Shown here piece by piece: positions 1 through 6,599 of a stretch of 7,658 nt of DNA. The stretch is from the IMG/VR virus record IMGVR_UViG_2548876852_000010. One strand, written 5' to 3'. Positions within the stretch are counted from its first letter, which is position 1, and each line of letters begins with the position of its first letter. The position numbers and the translations under genes were made by a program. The notes under the pieces are model-generated. The model did no database searches and was not told the origin of the DNA. It was given only the letters and a program-made list of their open reading frames with translations. The DNA is from a virus (lineage: Duplodnaviria > Heunggongvirae > Uroviricota > Caudoviricetes).

Positions 1-42
1 GATGACGATCAGGGCGATTAACATCGCCTTTTGCTGCTTCAT
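1..42 (-). CDS. hok: Hok/Gef-family type I toxin, first 14 codons only (CDS continues past the window start)
   Basis: Reverse complement of 1..42 is ATG AAG CAG CAA AAG GCG ATG TTA ATC GCC CTG ATC GTC ATC = MKQQKAMLIALIVI, the characteristic N-terminus and start of the single TM helix of Hok/Gef/RelF-type toxins. It is preceded by the typical leader ...gaaaggcaaggagaagcaggct ATG with SD GGAG. Confidence 0.75.
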   Translation of the reverse strand, partial: MKQQKAMLIALIVI

Positions 43-99
43 AGCCTGCTTCTCCTTGCCTTTCGGCACGTAAGAGGCTAACCTAGATTTGCCGTTCAT
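1..99 (-). CDS. mok: mok-like upstream reading frame, in frame with and overlapping hok (translational coupler), partial
   Basis: ATG at 99..97 (minus) opens MNGKSRLASYVPKGKEKQA, which runs in frame into the hok ATG at 42. This is the same arrangement as chromosomal mok/hok pairs, where mok is an N-terminal extension. Confidence 0.45.
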   Translation of the reverse strand, partial: MNGKSRLASYVPKGKEKQAMKQQKAMLIALIVI

Positions 100-170
100 A
101 GATTGAGCCTCAGATTAATGTTAAGCGTCTTGCAGGACGCGTAATGTTAACTGGGGCTTTTCTCTATCTG
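91..170 (+). ncRNA. sok: Candidate Sok-like antisense RNA complementary to the mok translation-initiation region
   Basis: Plus-strand -35 TTGCCT (56..61), 17-bp spacer, -10 TAACCT (79..84), giving a start near 91. The transcript would be antisense to the mok start at 97..99. It contains an inner hairpin GCGTC-ttgcag-GACGC and an outer CCTCAG/CTGGGG stem followed by CTTTTCTC. Boundaries are approximate. Confidence 0.3.
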
Positions 171-217
171 CCTTTGGTGTTCATGCCTGAGACAGATAGC
201 CTCAAGCACCCGCAGCC

Positions 218-246
218 ATTCTACTTAACTCCCGTTACCTCGCCAA
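218..246 (-). promoter_or_regulatory. Candidate hok/mok mRNA promoter
   Basis: On the minus strand: TTGGCG (246..241), 17-bp spacer, TAGAAT (223..218). The predicted transcript would begin near 211 with GGGTGCTTGAGGC..., resembling the 5' fold-back end of hok mRNAs. Confidence 0.35.
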
Positions 247-654
247 TATGAAATCAGTCAGAAAGGCGATCCATAAGAACAACAGCAAGGCAATAAATTG
301 CCATTACAGCAGCAATAGCCAGCGCACATTTGAGAACCAGCACCACAACCTCCTGTATTGGACGTACACCAGTCCTGATAAATATGAGGCTGTCTCGTCA
401 GTGATTCAATACAACTATTGGGTATAGTTTCTGTGATTTTGTTCTGTAGAAATGGAACATAATAACCTGTCACCACCAGCACTTCTTTAAATACGCCAAG
501 TCCGACGCAAGCTAACCTTCTAGCCCGCTTTGAGCGAAGAACGGACTGAGTAATTCAGGCCGTTAGCGACACTATGACATCATTAGCAACCAACTAGGAG
601 TTGGTAATAGATGAGTTAATTAATTGATTAAAAACCGACGATTTTACTAGATTA

Positions 655-684
655 CGGGAAGAAGAAAGGCCGCTGGTACGGCCT
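655..684 (-). terminator. Intrinsic terminator downstream of the small ORF 710..907
   Basis: Minus-strand hairpin AGGCCG-taccag-CGGCCT (667..684) followed by TTTCTTCTTCCC, sitting 26 nt past the ORF stop. Confidence 0.4.
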
Positions 685-709
685 CCCAGAGACTAGTCTA
701 TTGTTATGC

Positions 710-907
710 TTAGAAACGCTTTTCTATCTCTTTTTCTCTTTCGTTTATTGCATCGTCAATGATTTTTTTTGCTGAATTAATTTGTGGTGTTTTTTCTGGT
801 AATACATCTTCAAGATCTTTGGCAATTTTCTTTAATTTATCGATTTCTTTAGTTAAATCAGTTACAGATTTATCCGCTATTGACTTTGTCATTTTTCCAT
901 ATTCCAT
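710..907 (-). CDS. Small hypothetical protein (60-65 aa), lysine/glutamate-rich and predicted helical, in an AT-rich block
   Basis: Open frame with ATG at 907 (alternative ATG at 892 with a weak GGA upstream), TAA at 710..712 and its own hairpin terminator. No strong SD and no recognisable family, so the coding status is uncertain. Confidence 0.35.
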   Translation of the reverse strand: MEYGKMTKSIADKSVTDLTKEIDKLKKIAKDLEDVLPEKTPQINSAKKIIDDAINEREKEIEKRF

Positions 908-1080
908 TCAATTTATTTATCAATCAGTTACCCGTAAACCTTATCATGGATTCCAATTATCGACAGCTGGGATTTTTACTTTCTTGATCTGCCCCAGGCG
1001 AATGACATATCCCCATTAACCAATGTCCGCTCCTAGCACTTAGTAGACATTAATAGATTGTAAGCGTTCCCGTCATGTAG

Positions 1081-1461
1081 CGGTCACCGATTGGTGATGA
1101 ATTGAAGCGGATCATTGATGAAAGTCGCAATAACGTGGCCAGCCCATTTATCGTTCACCAGATCCCGGAACGGCAGGTTAAACGCAGCAAAGAAGTTTCT
1201 CATCCCACTCAAGTTGCACCAGACTATTTGAGTCGGTCGTTTTCAGCTACGCGTGACAAGCTGGGTTTATATGACAAACGGCCGATGGATGAAAGGCCAA
1301 CCTTTCACGAAATTCGCGCCTTAGCAGCACATCTTTTTGATCAGCAGGGCATCGATCCACAAGGACGAATGGCACACAGCGATGCGAAATCAACTAAAAT
1401 CTACACGCAAAACCATATCGACTGGGTTGTAGTTCCACATGGAGAAATTAAAGCCAGCTAG
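1081..1461 (+). pseudogene. int: 5'-truncated lambda-family tyrosine integrase (C-terminal catalytic fragment only)
   Basis: The frame opens right after an in-frame TAG at 1078..1080, and the first start-like codon is TTG at 1102. The translation ends ...PTFHEIRALAAHLFDQQGIDPQGRMAHSDAKSTKIYTQNHIDWVVVPHGEIKAS, mirroring the lambda Int C-terminus (PTFHELRSLSARLY...HLLGH...Y...IEIK), including the catalytic Tyr region. No integrase-like sequence is found in any frame upstream of 1080. Confidence 0.7.
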
Positions 1462-1555
1462 CACCAAGTAAGGCATAGAATTTTATTAACCAAGGAGCAT
1501 ATGACCAGTAATTAATTCTTACCGGAAAGTTAGCCCTGCTAAAATTAATATTAAC

Positions 1556-1591
1556 AAATAAAAAAATAGGGGCAAATATTTATATTTGCCC
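1556..1591 (-). terminator. Rho-independent terminator closing the SMODS-SLATT operon
   Basis: Perfect 10-bp inverted repeat GGGCAAATAT (1570..1579) / ATATTTGCCC (1582..1591) with a 2-nt loop. On the minus strand it is followed by C-TATTTTTTTATTT (complement of 1556..1569), 12 nt after the SLATT stop at 1603. Confidence 0.6.
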
Positions 1592-1602
1592 TCGCAACAT
1601 AT

Positions 1603-2184
1603 TTATCTTCTTTTCAGTTCCTTGGGAAGAAAAGCATCTATTTCTTCTTCAGAAAATGTTAAATCTTCTTTGTTTTTTAATGCGTCCTGTGCTTTTTTAT
1701 AAGCTTCAAATGTTGTACTAGGAGAGCCTGAATACACTGAATGTAAACTCTCGAGTAACGAATCCCGCTCTGACTGCAATTGCTCGATTGGTTTTTCACC
1801 CATTGCTAAGTCTGTAAGCAATGATAAATACTTTTCTCGGATTAACCAGATCTCATTTGCAGCCTGCTTATGTTTTTGCGCCAACTCACCAAGGTCATAA
1901 TCTTTGGTATAAGCGTTAAGAATGAGAAGCAGTGTTGAAACAACAATCCCAACCCCCGTGCCTACTTCACCCGCGCCGAAAAAAGTTGCTAGAAAGCCTC
2001 CAGTAGTTAAGGCGGAGAGAATTATTTGCCAAAACTTTATAGAAGATAGTCGAGATAGGAGAATGTCTGAGCATTTTTCATGCGTCTTATGTGAGTAAAC
2101 GACCCGACCATAACACTCTCTGATCTGCCCTTCTAAAACCCTTCTAGATTCAGGTGTATCCTTAGTCTGGAAATGTTGATCCAT
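1603..2184 (-). CDS. SLATT-like 2-TM membrane effector (predicted partner of the upstream nucleotidyltransferase)
   Basis: The ORF spans 1603..2241. The preferred start is ATG 2184..2182, preceded by GGGAG (aaatggcGGGAGattt ATG), whereas the ATG at 2241 has no SD. Two adjacent hydrophobic helices (FWQIILSALTTGGFLATFF and GVGIVVSTLLLILNAY) are flanked by amphipathic helices with conserved-looking H/Y/W positions (VVYSHKTHEK ... AQKHKQAANEIWLIREKYL), which is SLATT-like architecture. It overlaps the upstream gene by 23 nt. Confidence 0.8.
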   Translation of the reverse strand: MDQHFQTKDTPESRRVLEGQIRECYGRVVYSHKTHEKCSDILLSRLSSIKFWQIILSALTTGGFLATFFGAGEVGTGVGIVVSTLLLILNAYTKDYDLGELAQKHKQAANEIWLIREKYLSLLTDLAMGEKPIEQLQSERDSLLESLHSVYSGSPSTTFEAYKKAQDALKNKEDLTFSEEEIDAFLPKELKRR

Positions 2185-3043
2185 AAATCTCCCGCCATTT
2201 TTGCTTAGCCGACCATTCGCGTTTTGGGGTCGCCATTTCATGCTCTATAGCTTCGAGTGAAATGTTATAGCACCGTTTTGCTTTATATTGGAAAAGCCCT
2301 TTACCATAGACATACTGACCACTTCCTGGCGCTTTCCAATACTCCTTACTCGTATCTTGATCAGCCATCCATTTGAAGAAATCACGACTCATGAAATCGT
2401 AGTAAAGATACGACTTATCTCTATGCGCCCAATTTTCAATGAATTGATACGCAAGCGTATCAATGAGTAAACCACTTATAGGTACATCCCATTTACGCTT
2501 CCAAGCTCTTGCCATTCTACAAAGTTGCACCAAATTGTTATTGGTAATGTTATTTCTTAACCTCATTGCAGAAATTTCTGGCTTTGGATTTGTAATCCTC
2601 CAACGGCCACCACCGTTCGCATCAGGAAATGTGTAACTATCACTAACATTGAGGAAAGCTGGAACGACTTCAAATGTAATTCCATCATTGAACGGTACAA
2701 GGATCACTTGACCGTCACCTCTAATACTAGTGGTAGCATAGGTTTTTTCAATAGATCTCTTAACCGCTTGAAGCAATGCTGACTGCCCATTTCCTAAGTA
2801 GCTATTGTATTTTTGATACTCGGAATATGGTAGCTGAAAAATCATATCCAGATCGCTCAAGCCTTGCGTAGCTGTGTTCCGACCATATGATCCAACGTAG
2901 AGACTATGAGAAGTATCAGAACTGCTATCCCAAAAATCCGTATTTAAACGCTTCGTTATATTCCTATATCTAGTTGAAATTGTTCCACCATCTTTTACAG
3001 TAAGATTGGAGCAAAATCCGCAAAACCACTCAGCTAAACCCAT
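2162..3043 (-). CDS. SMODS / CD-NTase-like nucleotidyltransferase (cGAS/DncV-like, Pol-beta fold)
   Basis: The track ORF 2162..3049 begins at TTG. The first ATG is 3043..3041, preceded by AAGGA. Motif GSYGRNTATQGLSDLD (nt 2846..2893) fits the G[SG]-x(9-13)-D-h-D nucleotidyltransferase signature, followed by a FEVVPAF strand carrying the likely third acidic residue. The N-terminus (AEWF..F...L.L...RY..I..RLN) is typical of SMODS domains. Stop TAA at 2162..2164. Confidence 0.8.
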   Translation of the reverse strand: MGLAEWFCGFCSNLTVKDGGTISTRYRNITKRLNTDFWDSSSDTSHSLYVGSYGRNTATQGLSDLDMIFQLPYSEYQKYNSYLGNGQSALLQAVKRSIEKTYATTSIRGDGQVILVPFNDGITFEVVPAFLNVSDSYTFPDANGGGRWRITNPKPEISAMRLRNNITNNNLVQLCRMARAWKRKWDVPISGLLIDTLAYQFIENWAHRDKSYLYYDFMSRDFFKWMADQDTSKEYWKAPGSGQYVYGKGLFQYKAKRCYNISLEAIEHEMATPKREWSAKQKWREIYGSTFPD

Positions 3044-3185
3044 GCTCAATTCCTTTTCTAAAATCTAATGAAAAATTCAAGGGCGCATGTTCCATGCATC
3101 ATTGATAACTTTTTTCAGTCAGCTAGAGCAACATAATTGATACTAACTAGCTGTTTCTTCAAGTGAGTAACCTACTTTAGCATCA

Positions 3186-3222
3186 AGGTATTATACCTAC
3201 CAAGCATGGGGAGAAACCACCA
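3186..3222 (-). promoter_or_regulatory. Candidate promoter of the SMODS-SLATT operon
   Basis: Perfect minus-strand -10 TATAAT (3195..3190), but only a weak -35 (GGTTTC, 17 bp upstream). This implies a leader of about 140 nt. The call is tentative. Confidence 0.25.
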
Positions 3223-3357
3223 CTTAAGCCATTGAAGTATATAGAGCAGATTTTGTTGAAAAAGCACTGTTTGTCTATACATATGAATATGTGCTTTTAA
3301 CCAGCAATAGCGCGGCTCTCAGCGTTTTACAAGCAGTGTCATGGGGTGTCGGGGATC

Positions 3358-3385
3358 GGAAGTTCAAATCCTCTCGTGCGACCCA
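3358..3385 (+). other. Orphan tRNA 3'-end fragment (T-arm + acceptor 3' strand + discriminator + CCA), possible att core or integration scar
   Basis: GGAAG-TTCAAAT-CCTCT (T-stem/loop with one mismatch), then CGTGCGA-C-CCA at 3375..3385. No complementary 5' acceptor strand (TCGCACG) or D-arm exists within 100 nt upstream. The T-arm resembles a tRNA-Pro-like GGAGG/CCTCT arm. Confidence 0.35.
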
Positions 3386-3397
3386 AAAGATTATATA

Positions 3398-3424
3398 AAC
3401 CAGCCTGTTATTGCTGGTTTTTTA
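3398..3424. terminator. Hairpin terminator, usable on either strand
   Basis: 7-bp stem AACCAGC (3398..3404) / GCTGGTT (3413..3419) with an 8-nt loop. On the plus strand it is followed by TTTTTT, on the minus strand by TATATAATCTTTT. It sits about 150 nt past the minus-strand replication-module ORF ending at 3577 and 13 nt past the tRNA-like CCA on the plus strand. Confidence 0.5.
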
Positions 3425-3576
3425 TGCCTACCTTCCTGGTAGGGAAGCTATGGGGAATTACTGGGGAATCCCCCCCTTTACCTGCTCCCATTAAACTAAC
3501 ATAGCACGATGTAAGCAACTTCCGCTTCTGGCACAAAGCGGACAACCACGCTAGCTCTACCCTGTGCCACAAAATG

Positions 3577-4035
3577 TCAATTTACATCTGAACTAATGCA
3601 CTTTAATCTCGTCACTTCAAAAAAATACCGAACATCCCCCTGATAAAACGACAATATCCGCTGCATAACTTCGCTTTTACGACACTCAGTACAAATTATA
3701 TTATGACGCCTGTCGTAACGACGTATTTCTCCATCAGGTAATGACCAGATAAGGTCCGGATCAACCGCAGATGGTTTCTTCAGCTTTGCCCTTGAGAGCT
3801 TTTTACGGGCATTTTGCCAGTCCTTACGCGCCTGTTCAGACGGGAATAACCCGTAACCAGAGTTGTATACATCGCCACTGGCAACCAGCTCTCTGGCCAG
3901 AACGCTCATCAGATATCTTGTTGCCCCAGTTTTAGCTTCCAGTTGTCGTAACGTCTCGCGCCCACTCTGGCGTACGAGTTCAAGAACCTGCCCTTTAATT
4001 TTTTCCCGCTCTTCTTGTGTAAAAACTTTTGCCAC
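3577..4035 (-). CDS. Hypothetical protein (152 aa), last gene of the early-right/replication operon
   Basis: GTG start at 4035 preceded by a strong SD (AGGAGG gctt GTG). The N-terminus looks like a helix-turn-helix or winged helix (TGATRYLMSVLARELVASGDVY), and the C-terminal part has a single CxxC (ICTECRK). Family not recognised. Confidence 0.55.
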   Translation of the reverse strand: MAKVFTQEEREKIKGQVLELVRQSGRETLRQLEAKTGATRYLMSVLARELVASGDVYNSGYGLFPSEQARKDWQNARKKLSRAKLKKPSAVDPDLIWSLPDGEIRRYDRRHNIICTECRKSEVMQRILSFYQGDVRYFFEVTRLKCISSDVN

Positions 4036-4075
4036 AAGCCCTCCTGAAAATTACCTCATGACCAGAAATACACAC

Positions 4076-5146
4076 TTACCCCCTGAAGCCCGGTGGAATT
4101 TCGGTATCCGGTTCAGAAATATGATTCACACAACGCTGGTTGTTCGTACCGCTTACCGGGAGCAACCAGGGGTTTTCAAAATTCCGGTCCGGTCCAAAAA
4201 ACGTCGTCGCTCGCTGAACAAATTCCGTTCCCGTTTTCCCGGTAGCCGCCAGGTATCTTGCGTAACGCCTCACACCATCCAGCATGGCCTCTGGTGGCAC
4301 CCCCTCGCGTAATCTGGCCTTCCAGGCACTGAAAGCGGATTTCTTCGGGTTTGCCCCAGCACGCAACGGGTATTCCCGCCAGACCTGTTCGAACACATCC
4401 GGATAATCTACTCGCCCCACAGGCTGCCCGGTGTTTTCCGGGACTACCCGATCGGCTTCCCGCTGAATGGCGGAATCGGCTTCAGGCTGCTGCAGTTGGT
4501 GTGATTGCTCCGGCCTTGCGGTCATCACCTGCTGCACAGCGCCCGAATCGGCTTTCAGCGCATACGCTGAATCGGCTTCCGGTGTCGTGCCTGCTGGCTG
4601 ACCAGGATTGACGGTCTGAACATCCCCTGCCTGGTTCGTGGCGTTTTTTACGCCATGGACCATAGTGTTTTGATCTTCTTGATCTGTATCTTTATCTGTA
4701 TCTTTATCTGTCGTGACTCGTCGTGACATGTGCGTGACATTTCGTGACGCGCCGTGACAATCGCCATTTTGTTCCCGCTTTCTTTCCCTCTCTCGCTGCG
4801 CCCTCTTGCGCTCTGCAGGAGATTTTGCGGTTTGCGAAATATTGCCGTTGTCCTCTTTAAGCACCTGGCGTTTTTCCCATCCAGTGATTAAATCACCATC
4901 AAGTACCCGCCCCTGCATCGTCTGCAAAATTGAATCAATTACCTCTTCTGTCACGTCGAGCGCACTTGCCAAATCTTCTGTCGTGACATCAATGTGACCT
5001 CGCGTGACATTTCGTGACGCGCTCACCAGGAGGTGGATATACACTGCCATCACTGTTGCAATTGGCTGCCCTGACACCCTGGCAATTGTTCGCCACTTAG
5101 GGTCATTTGGCATGTCATGCCATAATCTGAGCCAAGCGTTAGCCAT
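4076..5146 (-). CDS. Prophage replication initiation protein (replisome-organiser-like) with internal iterons
   Basis: The track ORF begins at GTG 5152, but the first ATG at 5146 is preceded by GAGGTG. N-terminus MANAWLRLWHDMPNDPKWRTIARV...YIHLL and a conserved-looking C-terminal block (YPLRAGANPKKSAFSAWKARL...GVRRYARYLAATGKTGTEFVQRATTFFGPD) are typical of lambdoid or cryptic-prophage replication initiators. It sits downstream of the cro/cII analogues, as lambda O does, and contains a low-complexity acidic linker (TDKDTDKDTDQEDQ). Confidence 0.7.
   Translation of the reverse strand: MANAWLRLWHDMPNDPKWRTIARVSGQPIATVMAVYIHLLVSASRNVTRGHIDVTTEDLASALDVTEEVIDSILQTMQGRVLDGDLITGWEKRQVLKEDNGNISQTAKSPAERKRAQRERERKREQNGDCHGASRNVTHMSRRVTTDKDTDKDTDQEDQNTMVHGVKNATNQAGDVQTVNPGQPAGTTPEADSAYALKADSGAVQQVMTARPEQSHQLQQPEADSAIQREADRVVPENTGQPVGRVDYPDVFEQVWREYPLRAGANPKKSAFSAWKARLREGVPPEAMLDGVRRYARYLAATGKTGTEFVQRATTFFGPDRNFENPWLLPVSGTNNQRCVNHISEPDTEIPPGFRG
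4687..4710. repeat. Tandem direct repeat, 12-bp unit TATCTTTATCTG x2 (hexamer TATCT[TG] x4)
   Basis: Exact tandem duplication read directly from the sequence. It encodes the TDKDTDKD linker and abuts iteron cluster 1. Confidence 0.85.
4712..4758. repeat. Iteron cluster 1: five CGTGAC repeats phased at 10-11 bp
   Basis: CGTGAC at 4712, 4722, 4733, 4743 and 4753, about one helical turn apart, inside the replication-initiator CDS. Confidence 0.8.
4982..5018. repeat. Iteron cluster 2: four (C/T)GTGAC repeats phased at 10-11 bp
   Basis: CGTGAC at 4982, 5003 and 5013 and TGTGAC at 4993. The 21-bp string GCGTGACATTTCGTGACGCGC is shared exactly with cluster 1. Confidence 0.8.
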
Positions 5147-5962: not shown

Positions 5963-6599
5963 GAGCAAGCAAACAATATCTGAACGCATAACCCAACGTA
6001 TGCATGCGCTAAACCTGAAAGGCAAAGACCTTGTCAATGCCACTGGCGCATCAAAAGGCTCCGTAAGTCAATGGATGAACGGTGGAGGAGCGCCGTCCTC
6101 GCGTTACATAAGTTCACTGGCAAAAATATTGAAAGTAAACGAAAATTGGCTTCTTAATGGAGGAGAGTTAAATACAGGTGATTCGCTTGATCTATCTTTA
6201 CCGCCGATAAAAACGGTTCCGCTACTATCACTTCAGCAGGCAGCAAGCTGGAGTGATTATATGAAAAATTCCTCAATAACCTCTTGTGTGCAGCTTGTCG
6301 GAGAAATCCCGGCCAATACCTTTGCAGTTGTTCTAGAGAGTGACAGTATGTCAACATCTGGTGGGGGAGTTTCCATCCCAAATGGTTCAACAGTTTTTGT
6401 TGATCCCAATCGAACCGTACAACCAGGAAATATTGTCCTTGCCTTACCCAAAGGGACCACAACACCTGTCATTCGTAAACTGGAGATAGAAGGGCCGGAT
6501 ATTCTTTTAGTCCCCACGAATCCTCGCTACCCTTCAATTATGCTGGATGATCTATCTTGCATATTGGGCGTATGCTTTAAAATTCAACAAGATATTTAA
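5961..6599 (+). CDS. CI-like phage repressor (N-terminal HTH + C-terminal S24 LexA-like autopeptidase domain)
   Basis: ATG at 5961. The HTH region is LKGKDLVNATGASKGSVSQWMNG. The C-terminal domain has the S24 Ser/Lys dyad context (ESDSMS ... VIRKL) and collinear similarity to the lambda CI C-terminus (VFVDPNRTVQPGNIVLALP ... LLVPTNPRYPSIMLDD versus LVDPEQAVEPGDFCIARL ... FLQPLNPQYPMIPCNE). No SD, so possibly leaderless like lambda cI from PRM. Confidence 0.88.
   Translation: MSKQTISERITQRMHALNLKGKDLVNATGASKGSVSQWMNGGGAPSSRYISSLAKILKVNENWLLNGGELNTGDSLDLSLPPIKTVPLLSLQQAASWSDYMKNSSITSCVQLVGEIPANTFAVVLESDSMSTSGGGVSIPNGSTVFVDPNRTVQPGNIVLALPKGTTTPVIRKLEIEGPDILLVPTNPRYPSIMLDDLSCILGVCFKIQQDI

What the first reader, a model, noticed from the sequence alone, without database searches (positions are those of the whole stretch)
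3253..3424. Orphan tRNA 3' fragment with CCA and its own terminator: integration scar or tRNA-derived small RNA
At 3358..3385 the plus strand reads GGAAG-TTCAAAT-CCTCT-CGTGCGA-C-CCA, that is a T-arm, a 7-nt acceptor 3' strand, a discriminator and CCA. The terminator hairpin follows 13 nt later, but there is no 5' acceptor strand or D-arm upstream. Integrative elements that target tRNA genes leave exactly such partial 3' copies at one boundary, so this may delimit the island carrying SMODS-SLATT from the neighbouring prophage module. Alternatively, a promoter-like TTGTTG-17-TATACA at 3253..3281 could drive a roughly 135-nt sRNA that ends in this tRNA-like module.
Basis: partly seen in the sequence, partly recalled or inferred. 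Interest (0 to 1): 0.45.

Follow-up and report, generated by a model that had tools for sequence, protein, structure and literature searches.

The report
Decayed phage attachment site (tRNA-Pro copy)
The "orphan tRNA end" is the mutated remnant of a phage attachment site (attP), which carries a copy of the last 48 bases of the E. coli proline tRNA gene proL, left next to a truncated integrase gene and a small CBASS defence cassette inside another prophage; it is an ordinary fossil of phage integration machinery, not a tRNA gene or a new small RNA.

Summary
Window 3338-3385 is a 43/47-identical copy of the 3' two-thirds of proL (tRNA-Pro GGG), running from the anticodon stem-loop to CCA. No cloverleaf and no Rfam match was found.

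The whole stretch 3205-3470 aligns end to end with the attP region that directly follows the integrase gene in free temperate phages (Eeyore, Flotzy, a 44-kb Klebsiella phage-plasmid). Upstream, window 1086-1461 is the C-terminal 119 aa of that same integrase family. A SMODS-SLATT (type I CBASS) cassette sits between the int stop codon and the P arm.

Relatives show every stage. Some have a full integrase and a perfect core, including a true attR junction in Enterobacter sp. RIT637. E. coli relics then add two G>A changes, then A>C, then a C deletion. The "discriminator C + CCA" comes from those last two mutations.

Both flanks are phage-type (P-O-P'), so this is an unrecombined, decaying attP and not an integration scar. 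It still lies about 95 nt inside the right edge of the imported 2.9-kb segment.

79 of 80 distant SMODS loci lack the element, and the fold is not significantly stable, which argues against an sRNA.

This is an ordinary instance of a known kind, of low interest.

The parts
1086..1461 (+). Truncated lambda-type tyrosine integrase gene (int'): only the C-terminal ~119-125 codons, reading towards the attP relic.
   Evidence: The 119-aa product is 92% identical to residues 274-392 of the full 392-aa integrase of L018 and 69% identical to residues 274-390 of phage Eeyore integrase. DNA homology to L018 and L021 starts at window 1086/1087. RefSeq annotates it as 'recombinase, frameshifted, missing N-terminus'. 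The full-length relatives carry the lambda Arm-DNA-binding domain.
1462..3204 (-). Cargo cassette inserted between the int stop codon and the P arm: SLATT 2TM effector (1603-2241) and SMODS/CD-NTase cyclase (2162-3049), a minimal type I CBASS.
   Evidence: Pfam gives SLATT_4 at 6e-74 and SMODS at 2.1e-50. PADLOC gives Cyclase PDLC00786 at 4.7e-144 and 2TM Effector PDLC00696 at 1.4e-84. In cargo-free phages the int stop codon lies within about 20 nt of the first P-arm motif, CATGGGGA.
3205..3337 (+). P arm of the attP relic.
   Evidence: It aligns with the sequence directly after the int stop codon in Eeyore, Flotzy and the K. quasipneumoniae phage-plasmid at 68-79% identity, and in L018 and L021.
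3338..3385 (+). attP core: a decayed copy of proL (tRNA-Pro GGG) positions 29-76, covering the anticodon stem-loop, variable loop, T-arm, 3' acceptor strand and CCA. It has 4 changes: G>A at 3355, G>A at 3361, a C deleted after 3379, and A>C at 3384.
   Evidence: It is 43/47 identical to proL and to the intact phage cores, and matches proL in 5426/5426 E. coli genomes. The core is 47/47 identical to proL in Eeyore, Flotzy, the Kq phage, L018 and L021. A stepwise decay series is seen among near-identical cassettes.
3386..3424 (+). Proximal P' arm: the phage-supplied replacement terminator for proL (hairpin 3397-3420 plus T-run), weakened by a G>T change at the stem top.
   Evidence: The hairpin folds at -10.2 kcal/mol, against -15.8 in Eeyore and -15.7 for the native proL terminator. 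The stem sequence CCAGC/GCTGG is the phage type, not the native CCAACC/GGTTGG. Identity is 76-80% to the three phage P' arms and 63% to the native flank.
3425..3479 (+). Distal P' arm with tandem GGGAA/GGGGAA repeats (TAGGGAAG, ATGGGGAA, CTGGGGAA). These are inferred to be arm-type integrase binding sites.
   Evidence: Three repeats at similar spacing are conserved in Eeyore, Flotzy, the Kq phage and the APEC O78 attL, and are absent from the native proL flank. Three of the four TGGGGAR matches in the window lie in the attP region. Their function is an inference.
3480..3539 (.). A ~60-nt junction sequence shared by the donor context and the recipient prophage backbone. It is the probable recombination point that placed the int'-CBASS-attP segment next to the DUF977 gene.
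   Evidence: AR_0162 (L008) homology covers window 531-3539. The cassette-free backbone L100 is homologous to window 1-546 and 3480-4044.

Best explanation
Window 3205-3479 is a fossil attP site of a lambda-like temperate phage family whose integrase targets proL, the tRNA-Pro(GGG) gene downstream of yejM.

How such a site works in an active phage (established principle): attP carries an exact copy of the 3' 48 nt of proL, from the anticodon stem-loop to CCA, followed by its own terminator. Int-mediated crossover, inferred here to fall in the anticodon-loop region, then regenerates an intact, properly terminated tRNA gene at attL. The displaced host 3' fragment ends up at attR.

What happened here: a two-gene type I CBASS cassette (SMODS cyclase plus SLATT 2TM effector) was acquired in the very short (under ~20 nt) gap between the int stop codon and the P arm. 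The int-CBASS-attP module was later left without function. The N-terminal two-thirds of int were lost. The module was carried, still in the unrecombined P-O-P' configuration, into the variable spot between hokD and the DUF977/replication genes of a Rac/Qin-like prophage, apparently by recombination at a short shared sequence (3480-3539). The tRNA-derived core and terminator are now decaying neutrally, with 4 changes in the core and 1 in the hairpin.

Shown: the homologies, the gene truncation, the decay series, and the attP-type flanks.
Inferred: the crossover position, the arm-type sites, the order of events, and the loss of function.
For: 1. The fragment is 92% identical to proL in all 5426 E. 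coli genomes. The hits examined (REL606, APEC O78, MB1159, ERL06-2503) lie downstream of yejM.
2. Window 3205-3470 aligns colinearly with the region immediately after the integrase gene in three free or circular phage genomes.
3. The upstream ORF 1102-1461 is the C-terminus of that integrase family: 92% to L018 and 69% to Eeyore.
4. Intact versions exist. L018 has a full 392-aa int, the same cassette and a perfect core. L021 (Enterobacter sp. RIT637) has exo-xis-int-SLATT-SMODS-P arm-perfect core, followed by host MFS and Mqo genes, which is a true attR.
5. The core is invariant (47/47) in five elements whose flanks differ by 20-30%. It carries 2, then 3, then 4 changes in E. coli copies that lack int.
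6. The P' arm is phage-type in both its stem sequence and its GGGGAA repeats. Identity in the terminator segment is 76-80% to the three phage P' arms and 63% to the native flank; in the distal segment it is 61-65% against 45%.
7. In AR_0162 the same segment abuts tail-fibre genes, as on the free-phage map.
8. APEC O78 shows the corresponding attL: proL, then a P' arm, then a DinI pseudogene.
9. The general principle that attP carries a fragment of the target tRNA gene which restores the gene on integration, and the anticodon-centred class of sites, are described in PMC4383910. That tRNA gene fragments are pervasive by-products of integration is described in PMC9897764.
Against: - No experiment shows that Eeyore-type integrases use proL. 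This is inferred from sequence and from one attL (APEC O78) and one attR (L021).
- Native proL terminators are similar enough to the phage copies that the proximal P' versus B' distinction rests on stem sequence and on the distal repeats.
- No IHF consensus was found in the arms.
- The arm-type repeat motif is not statistically enriched over the whole window: 4 matches against 2 expected.
- The route by which an unrecombined attP ended up inside another prophage is reconstructed from only two contexts.
Confidence: 0.9

Rival explanations
1. Integration scar (attR or attL). An island carrying SMODS-SLATT integrated into a tRNA gene at this spot, and the fragment is the displaced 3' copy marking one island end.
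For: A tRNA 3' fragment lies next to an integrase-family gene and near the edge of the imported segment. Exactly this configuration exists in Enterobacter sp. RIT637 (L021).
Against: No tRNA-Pro gene occurs in the window or in the 24-kb locus. The locus lies inside a Rac/Qin-like prophage, not at yejM-proL-yejO. The downstream flank carries the phage P' stem and GGGGAA repeats, not the host flank. In the donor context it runs into tail-fibre genes.
Confidence: 0.04
2. A functional small RNA of about 135 nt, driven by TTGTTG-17-TATACA and ending at the hairpin, with a tRNA-like 3' module. It might act as a regulator or decoy linked to the CBASS cassette.
For: A real hairpin plus T-run is present. 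There is a weak promoter-like pair of hexamers, read directly from the sequence. The region is conserved among related phages.
Against: The promoter scan did not list it. The -35 hexamer is not conserved in the homologous attP regions. The fold of 3284-3426 gives z = -1.66, with 11 of 200 shuffles folding as well, and the tRNA part alone gives z = -0.59. No Rfam family matched. The element is absent from 79 of 80 SMODS loci in other species. Mutations hit the T-stem, the acceptor strand, the CCA and the terminator stem. The conservation is explained by attP function.
Confidence: 0.03
3. A still-usable secondary attachment site. The relic keeps an intact anticodon-loop region and arm repeats, and is recombined in trans by Int of incoming or co-resident proL phages. 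This is not exclusive of the fossil reading.
For: The anticodon stem-loop segment CATGGGGTGTCGGGG is unchanged in all copies. The P and P' arms are largely retained. The cassette occurs in at least two different prophage contexts.
Against: The two contexts are joined at a shared 60-nt sequence outside attP, not at the core. There is no cis integrase. Four core mutations have accumulated. No hybrid att junctions were seen in any locus examined.
Confidence: 0.06

Closest known systems
attP sites of tRNA-targeting temperate phages and islands, anticodon-centred 'A' class of Williams/Islander (PMC4383910; Williams 2002 NAR 30:866 as cited there)
   Same: It is a stretch of about 250 bp next to int that contains a 3' fragment of the target tRNA gene, starting at the anticodon stem-loop, so that integration would regenerate the gene. 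The integrase relatives are tyrosine recombinases with a lambda-type arm-binding domain.
   Different: Here the site is orphaned. The integrase is reduced to its C-terminal third, the core carries 4 mutations, and the site lies inside another prophage. A CBASS cassette separates int from the P arm.
Phage lambda int-attP module (P arm - core - P' arm with three tandem P' arm-type sites); comparison from general knowledge
   Same: Same gene order (tail fibres - attP - int, with int reading towards attP), same integrase domain architecture (Arm-DNA-bind_1), and three tandem repeats in the P' arm.
   Different: Lambda targets an intergenic attB with a 15-bp core, not a tRNA gene. The repeat sequences are unrelated. 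Binding was not tested here.
Displaced tRNA gene fragments at island or prophage ends (attR-type 'tDNA fragments'; PMC9897764, PMC4383910)
   Same: It is a partial 3' tRNA copy generated by the integration system of a mobile element, and tRNA finders can miss it or miscall it.
   Different: Those fragments are flanked by host DNA on one side and paired with a full tRNA at the other end of the island. This one has phage arms on both sides and no partner.
Anti-phage cargo hotspots next to integrase genes in P2 and P4 elements (Rousset et al. 2022, PMC9122126)
   Same: A defence system (CBASS) is carried as variable cargo adjacent to the integrase of a temperate element.
   Different: This is a different phage family and a different position (between the int stop codon and the attP P arm). 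It was seen here as presence or absence among relatives, not surveyed as a hotspot.

Membership tests
Functional tRNA gene | Complete cloverleaf (5' acceptor strand, D-arm, anticodon arm, T-arm) detectable by tRNA finders or covariance models | tested here: not met
   ARAGORN found 0 genes in the window. Rfam at E<=10 found no tRNA match in the whole window or in the isolated fragment. Homology to proL begins only at tRNA position 29.
Phage attP targeting a tRNA gene | Contains a fragment matching the 3' part of a host tRNA gene | tested here: met
   43/47 identical to proL, and 47/47 in intact relatives.
Phage attP targeting a tRNA gene | Lies next to the cognate integrase gene | tested here: met
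   int' at 1086-1461 reads towards the site and belongs to the same family as the integrases directly upstream of the homologous attP in Eeyore, Flotzy, the Kq phage, L018 and L021. The gene is truncated and is separated from the site by the 1.7-kb CBASS cargo.
Phage attP targeting a tRNA gene | Both flanks are element DNA (P-O-P'), homologous to attP of free phage genomes | tested here: met
   Colinear alignment over about 265 nt. Identity to the phage regions is 68-79% in the P arm and 76-80% then 61-65% in the two P' segments, against 56%, 63% and 45% for the native proL flanks.
Phage attP targeting a tRNA gene | Arm-type Int sites and accessory-factor (IHF) sites | tested here: inconclusive
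   Conserved tandem GGGGAA repeats lie in P' and one copy in P, but they are not enriched over the window as a whole. No IHF consensus was found within 3205-3470.
Phage attP targeting a tRNA gene | Supports Int-mediated recombination with attB | not testable with these tools
   This needs a recombination assay. The truncated int and the mutated core suggest loss of function.
attL/attR integration junction (island boundary scar) | A full copy of the same tRNA gene at the opposite end of the element | tested here: not met
   No tRNA-Pro occurs in the window or in the 24-kb locus, which holds only phage tRNA-Arg and tRNA-Ile.
attL/attR integration junction (island boundary scar) | One flank is host chromosomal DNA of the target locus (yejM or yejO side) | tested here: not met
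   The flanks are the CBASS cargo plus P arm on one side and the P' arm plus prophage DUF977 gene on the other. A true attR, shown for comparison, is L021.
Bacterial sRNA gene | Promoter, terminator, conserved or stable structure, or a match to a described family | tested here: not met
   Only the terminator is present. The promoter was not called and its -35 is not conserved. z = -1.66. No Rfam hit. Expression was not testable.
Non-coding component of the SMODS-SLATT (CBASS) system | Co-occurs with the protein genes across hosts | tested here: not met
   It is present upstream of SMODS in only 1 of 80 species-representative loci, the one that also has this integrase. No tRNA gene lay closer than about 3.3 kb to SMODS in the 60 loci scanned.

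The most novel reading that the evidence does not exclude
The relic attP, whose anticodon-loop crossover region and arm repeats are still intact, may remain a substrate for integrases of incoming proL-targeting phages. It would then act as a site-specific 'docking point' through which the adjacent CBASS cassette is captured by, or exchanged between, temperate phages. That would be a defence-gene shuttle based on orphan attP sites.
Probability: 0.06. Interest if true: 0.4.

Novelty: new member of a known kind. Interest (0 to 1): 0.12.

Why it matters
- It shows how to read such fragments. A tRNA 3' piece with a terminator and no 5' half can be an attP copy rather than an island-end scar, and the flanks tell the two apart.
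- It dates and explains the apparent "discriminator C + CCA" as two recent mutations.
- It identifies proL as the target of an unannotated family of lambda-like coliphages, and the int-attP gap as a site where a CBASS cassette was acquired.
- For annotation, it accounts for an unannotated 530-nt intergenic stretch present in about 46 complete E. coli genomes.
- It opens no new biology.

Tried and rejected
- Rfam on the isolated 51-nt fragment, to obtain a 5'-truncated tRNA match: nothing at E<=10.
- IHF consensus WATCAANNNNTTR in the arms: no site within 3205-3470.
- TGGGGAR enrichment: 4 matches against 2 expected, not significant for the window, only suggestive by position.
- Search for a second (inverted or direct) copy of the 3480-3539 junction sequence, or of the P2-EC31 inverted repeats, at the left edge of the imported segment: none found.
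- Literature on proL as a prophage integration site in E. coli: one paper held all three terms, and it was irrelevant (one search also gave nothing relevant).
- I first took the 81% matches that run through the terminator in many genomes as evidence of occupied proL sites. They turned out to be unoccupied native loci with a similar terminator, so that argument was dropped. The P' versus B' call now rests on stem sequence, distal repeats and context.
- tblastn of SMODS against deposited phage genomes found only two distant Listeria phages.
- No E. coli complete genome holds the cassette with a full-length integrase.

Full report
**1. The observation**

GGAAG-TTCAAAT-CCTCT-CGTGCGA-C-CCA lies at 3358-3385, TTGTTG at 3253-3258 and TATACA at 3276-3281. 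A hairpin at 3397-3420 is followed by a T-run ending at 3424. On its own the hairpin is stable: -10.2 kcal/mol, z = -3.8. The simple terminator scan did not list it, and the promoter scan did not list the plus-strand hexamer pair.

No tRNA gene is present. ARAGORN found none. Rfam at E<=10 returned only sok at 37-211 and three weak matches far below their gathering scores, none of them near 3253-3424. Rfam also found nothing when the 51-nt fragment was given alone, which would have allowed a truncated match.

**2. Which tRNA**

A sensitive blastn of 3300-3430 against 5426 complete E. coli genomes matched every genome. Window 3338-3388 is 92% identical to a tRNA-Pro gene (E = 2e-10). In the hits examined (REL606, APEC O78, MB1159, ERL06-2503) this is the gene downstream of yejM, that is proL with anticodon GGG.

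The homology starts at tRNA position 29, in the anticodon stem, and runs to CCA. The fragment is therefore about 48 nt long, not just the T-arm and acceptor strand.

**3. The context**

The window is 100% identical to part of a lambdoid Rac/Qin-like prophage of E. coli 2013C-4991. Its genes are:
- hokD/sok
- a C-terminal recombinase fragment (1102-1461, + strand)
- SLATT (1603-2241, - strand) and SMODS (2162-3049, - strand)
- the intergenic stretch under study
- DUF977, a replication-like gene, ydaT and cro (all - strand)
- a cI/LexA-like repressor (+ strand)

PADLOC classifies the SMODS-SLATT pair as a CBASS cyclase plus a 2TM effector.

**4. Homology to phage attP**

Window 3202-3423 matches three free or circular phage genomes at 75-81%: Escherichia phages Eeyore and Flotzy, and a 44-kb circular K. 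quasipneumoniae replicon with phage genes. In all three the matching stretch begins immediately after the integrase gene (int 3810-4997, match from 5001). This is the classical int-attP arrangement.

The multiple alignment is colinear over about 265 nt and has four parts:
- A P arm.
- A core that in the phages is identical to proL: CATGGGGTGTCGGGGGTCGGAGGTTCAAATCCTCTCGTGCCGACCA.
- A terminator hairpin.
- A distal P' segment with three tandem GGGGAA-type repeats.

The window ORF 1102-1461 is the C-terminal 119 aa of this integrase family. It is 69% identical to Eeyore Int residues 274-390 and 92% identical to residues 274-392 of the L018 integrase. Full-length relatives carry the lambda Arm-DNA-binding domain.

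In the cargo-free phages the int stop codon is within about 20 nt of the first P-arm motif, (C/T)ATGGGGA. In the window, 1.74 kb holding SLATT and SMODS fills that gap.

**5. attP, not a scar**

Segment identities:

| Segment | Identity to phage attP regions | Identity to native proL flank |
|---|---|---|
| P arm | 68-79% | 56% |
| Terminator segment | 76-80% | 63% |
| Distal P' | 61-65% | 45% |

The window hairpin uses the phage stem CCAGC/GCTGG, not the native CCAACC/GGTTGG, and the GGGGAA repeats are absent from the native flank.

Native proL terminators are nevertheless similar in form. Many ~81% blast matches that run through the terminator turned out to be unoccupied loci. The P' versus B' call therefore rests on the stem sequence, the distal repeats and the context.

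The context supports the same conclusion:
- There is no tRNA-Pro elsewhere in the window or in the 24-kb locus.
- In a second group of genomes (AR_0162 type) the same segment, window 531-3539, abuts tail-fibre genes in the order J-lom-stf-tfa'-attP-SMODS-SLATT-int'. This is the order on a free lambda-like genome.

Real junctions of this phage family exist elsewhere:
- APEC O78 has proL followed by a P' arm and a DinI pseudogene, which is an attL.
- Enterobacter sp. RIT637 (L021) has exo-xis-int (392 aa)-SLATT-SMODS-P arm-perfect 50-nt proL 3' part, then a different terminator and host MFS and Mqo genes. This is an attR.

**6. Decay**

The core is 47/47 identical to proL in five elements whose flanks differ by 20-30%: Eeyore, Flotzy, the Kq phage, L018 and L021.

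Copies with near-identical SMODS cassettes form a series:

| Copies | State of int and core |
|---|---|
| L018 | Full integrase, intact core |
| AR_0162, L012, L015, L016 | Two G>A changes (variable loop and T-stem); ...GTGCCGACCAAAAAG intact |
| L013, L017 | Additionally A>C in the CCA (GACCCAAAAG) |
| L014, L019 and the window | Additionally one C deleted (GTGCGACCCA) |

The A-C mismatch in the T-stem is one of the G>A changes. The terminator stem has also lost a pair: -10.2 kcal/mol against -15.8 in Eeyore.

No complete E. coli genome carries this cassette with a full-length integrase.

**7. The element is not part of the CBASS system**

A scan of one genome per species found 80 loci encoding SMODS homologues at 59-86% identity in very distant phyla. 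Only one of them, L021, which also has the integrase, contains anything similar to window 3050-3576. ARAGORN scanned 60 of these loci and found tRNA genes in only five, none closer than about 3.3 kb to the cyclase gene. The cassette homology in Pectobacterium covers only window 1603-3110.

**8. The sRNA alternative**

- Folding 3284-3426 gives z = -1.66, with 11 of 200 shuffles folding as well.
- The tRNA-derived part alone gives z = -0.59.
- The -35 hexamer is not conserved in the homologous attP regions.

Conservation of the region among phages is accounted for by attP function.

**9. How the segment got here**

Compared with a cassette-free prophage of the same type (P393-F10, L100), window 1-546 and 3480-4044 are backbone, and 547-3479 replaces about 0.9 kb. 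The AR_0162-type donor shares window 531-3539. The two parents therefore overlap by 16 nt on the left and 60 nt on the right.

I infer that recombination at these short shared sequences moved int'-CBASS-attP into the variable spot between hokD and DUF977. The tRNA fragment lies about 95 nt inside the right edge of the segment.

**10. Comparison with what is known**

Two points are established in the literature:
- An island or phage attP carries a fragment of its tRNA target, so that integration restores the gene, and an anticodon-centred class of sites exists (PMC4383910).
- tRNA gene fragments are pervasive by-products of integration (PMC9897764).

This locus is an ordinary, unannotated example with two small twists. 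It is the element-borne copy rather than the displaced host copy, and a defence cassette sits between int and attP, which recalls the integrase-adjacent defence hotspots of P2 and P4 (PMC9122126). I found no paper describing proL as a coliphage attB.

**Verdict**

The fragment is a real feature and is correctly tied to integration machinery. It is a decaying attP relic, not a scar and not an sRNA. Interest is low.

Noticed in passing
window 3480-3543: A ~60-nt sequence (ACCTGCTCCCATTAAACTAACATAGCACGATGTAAGCAACTTCCGCTTCTGGCACA) is the shared junction between the donor and recipient contexts of the imported segment. It recurs at 87-94% identity beside the lysogenic-conversion ORF cassette in the P2-EC31 Z-region, next to its annotated 'left inverted repeat', and in many Klebsiella, Pantoea and Enterobacter plasmids. 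There is no Rfam match and no second copy in the window. It may be a recurrent recombination or junction sequence for moron cassettes.
   Followed up: partly
window 2162-3049 (-) and 1603-2241 (-); loci L020-L099: The SMODS cyclase of this two-gene type I CBASS is 59-86% identical at protein level in Chloroflexota, Planctomycetota, Poribacteria, Cyanobacteria, Nitrospirota, Bacteroidales and others. This is unusually strong cross-phylum conservation, implying recent wide horizontal spread or strong constraint.
   Followed up: partly
window 37-211 (-): A complete sok antisense RNA of a hokD/sok type I toxin-antitoxin locus (Rfam RF01794, 110 bits, E = 4.8e-25; hokD is annotated in the matching genome).
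   Followed up: no
L004 (E. coli MS8345) about 5990-6510: A displaced orphan copy of the proL 3' part, a phage P' arm and a DinI pseudogene sits between IS3 copies in the island next to ssrA, far from proL. It is another relic of the same phage family in a third context.
   Followed up: no
L011 (Salmonella phage Gifsy-2, NC_010393 44213-44334): A 75%-identical copy of the T-arm-to-P'-arm stretch (window 3351-3469) lies between the tail-fibre assembly gene and the effector gene sseI. This suggests an old attP relic of the same kind next to a virulence moron.
   Followed up: no
window 3299-3311 and 3409-3421: AACCAGCAATAGC upstream of the core is an inverted repeat of the 3' half of the terminator hairpin (TTATTGCTGGTT). 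In the MFE fold of 3284-3426 the two pair and enclose the tRNA fragment. The overall z-score is not significant, and the repeat is only partly conserved in the phage attP regions.
   Followed up: partly
window 1558-1592: A GC-rich hairpin (GGGGCAAATAT..ATATTTGCCCC) flanked by A/T runs lies just downstream of the SLATT stop codon and past the int' stop codon, and looks like a bidirectional terminator for the cassette. It produced the weak L20_leader and RefA9 Rfam matches.
   Followed up: no
L101 (E. coli AMA1167) and L100 (P393-F10), region between hokD and DUF977: The position occupied by the int'-CBASS-attP segment holds different, partly unannotated DNA in related Rac/Qin-like prophages, including another short 'site-specific integrase' gene in AMA1167. 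It appears to be a variable cargo spot of this prophage type.
   Followed up: no
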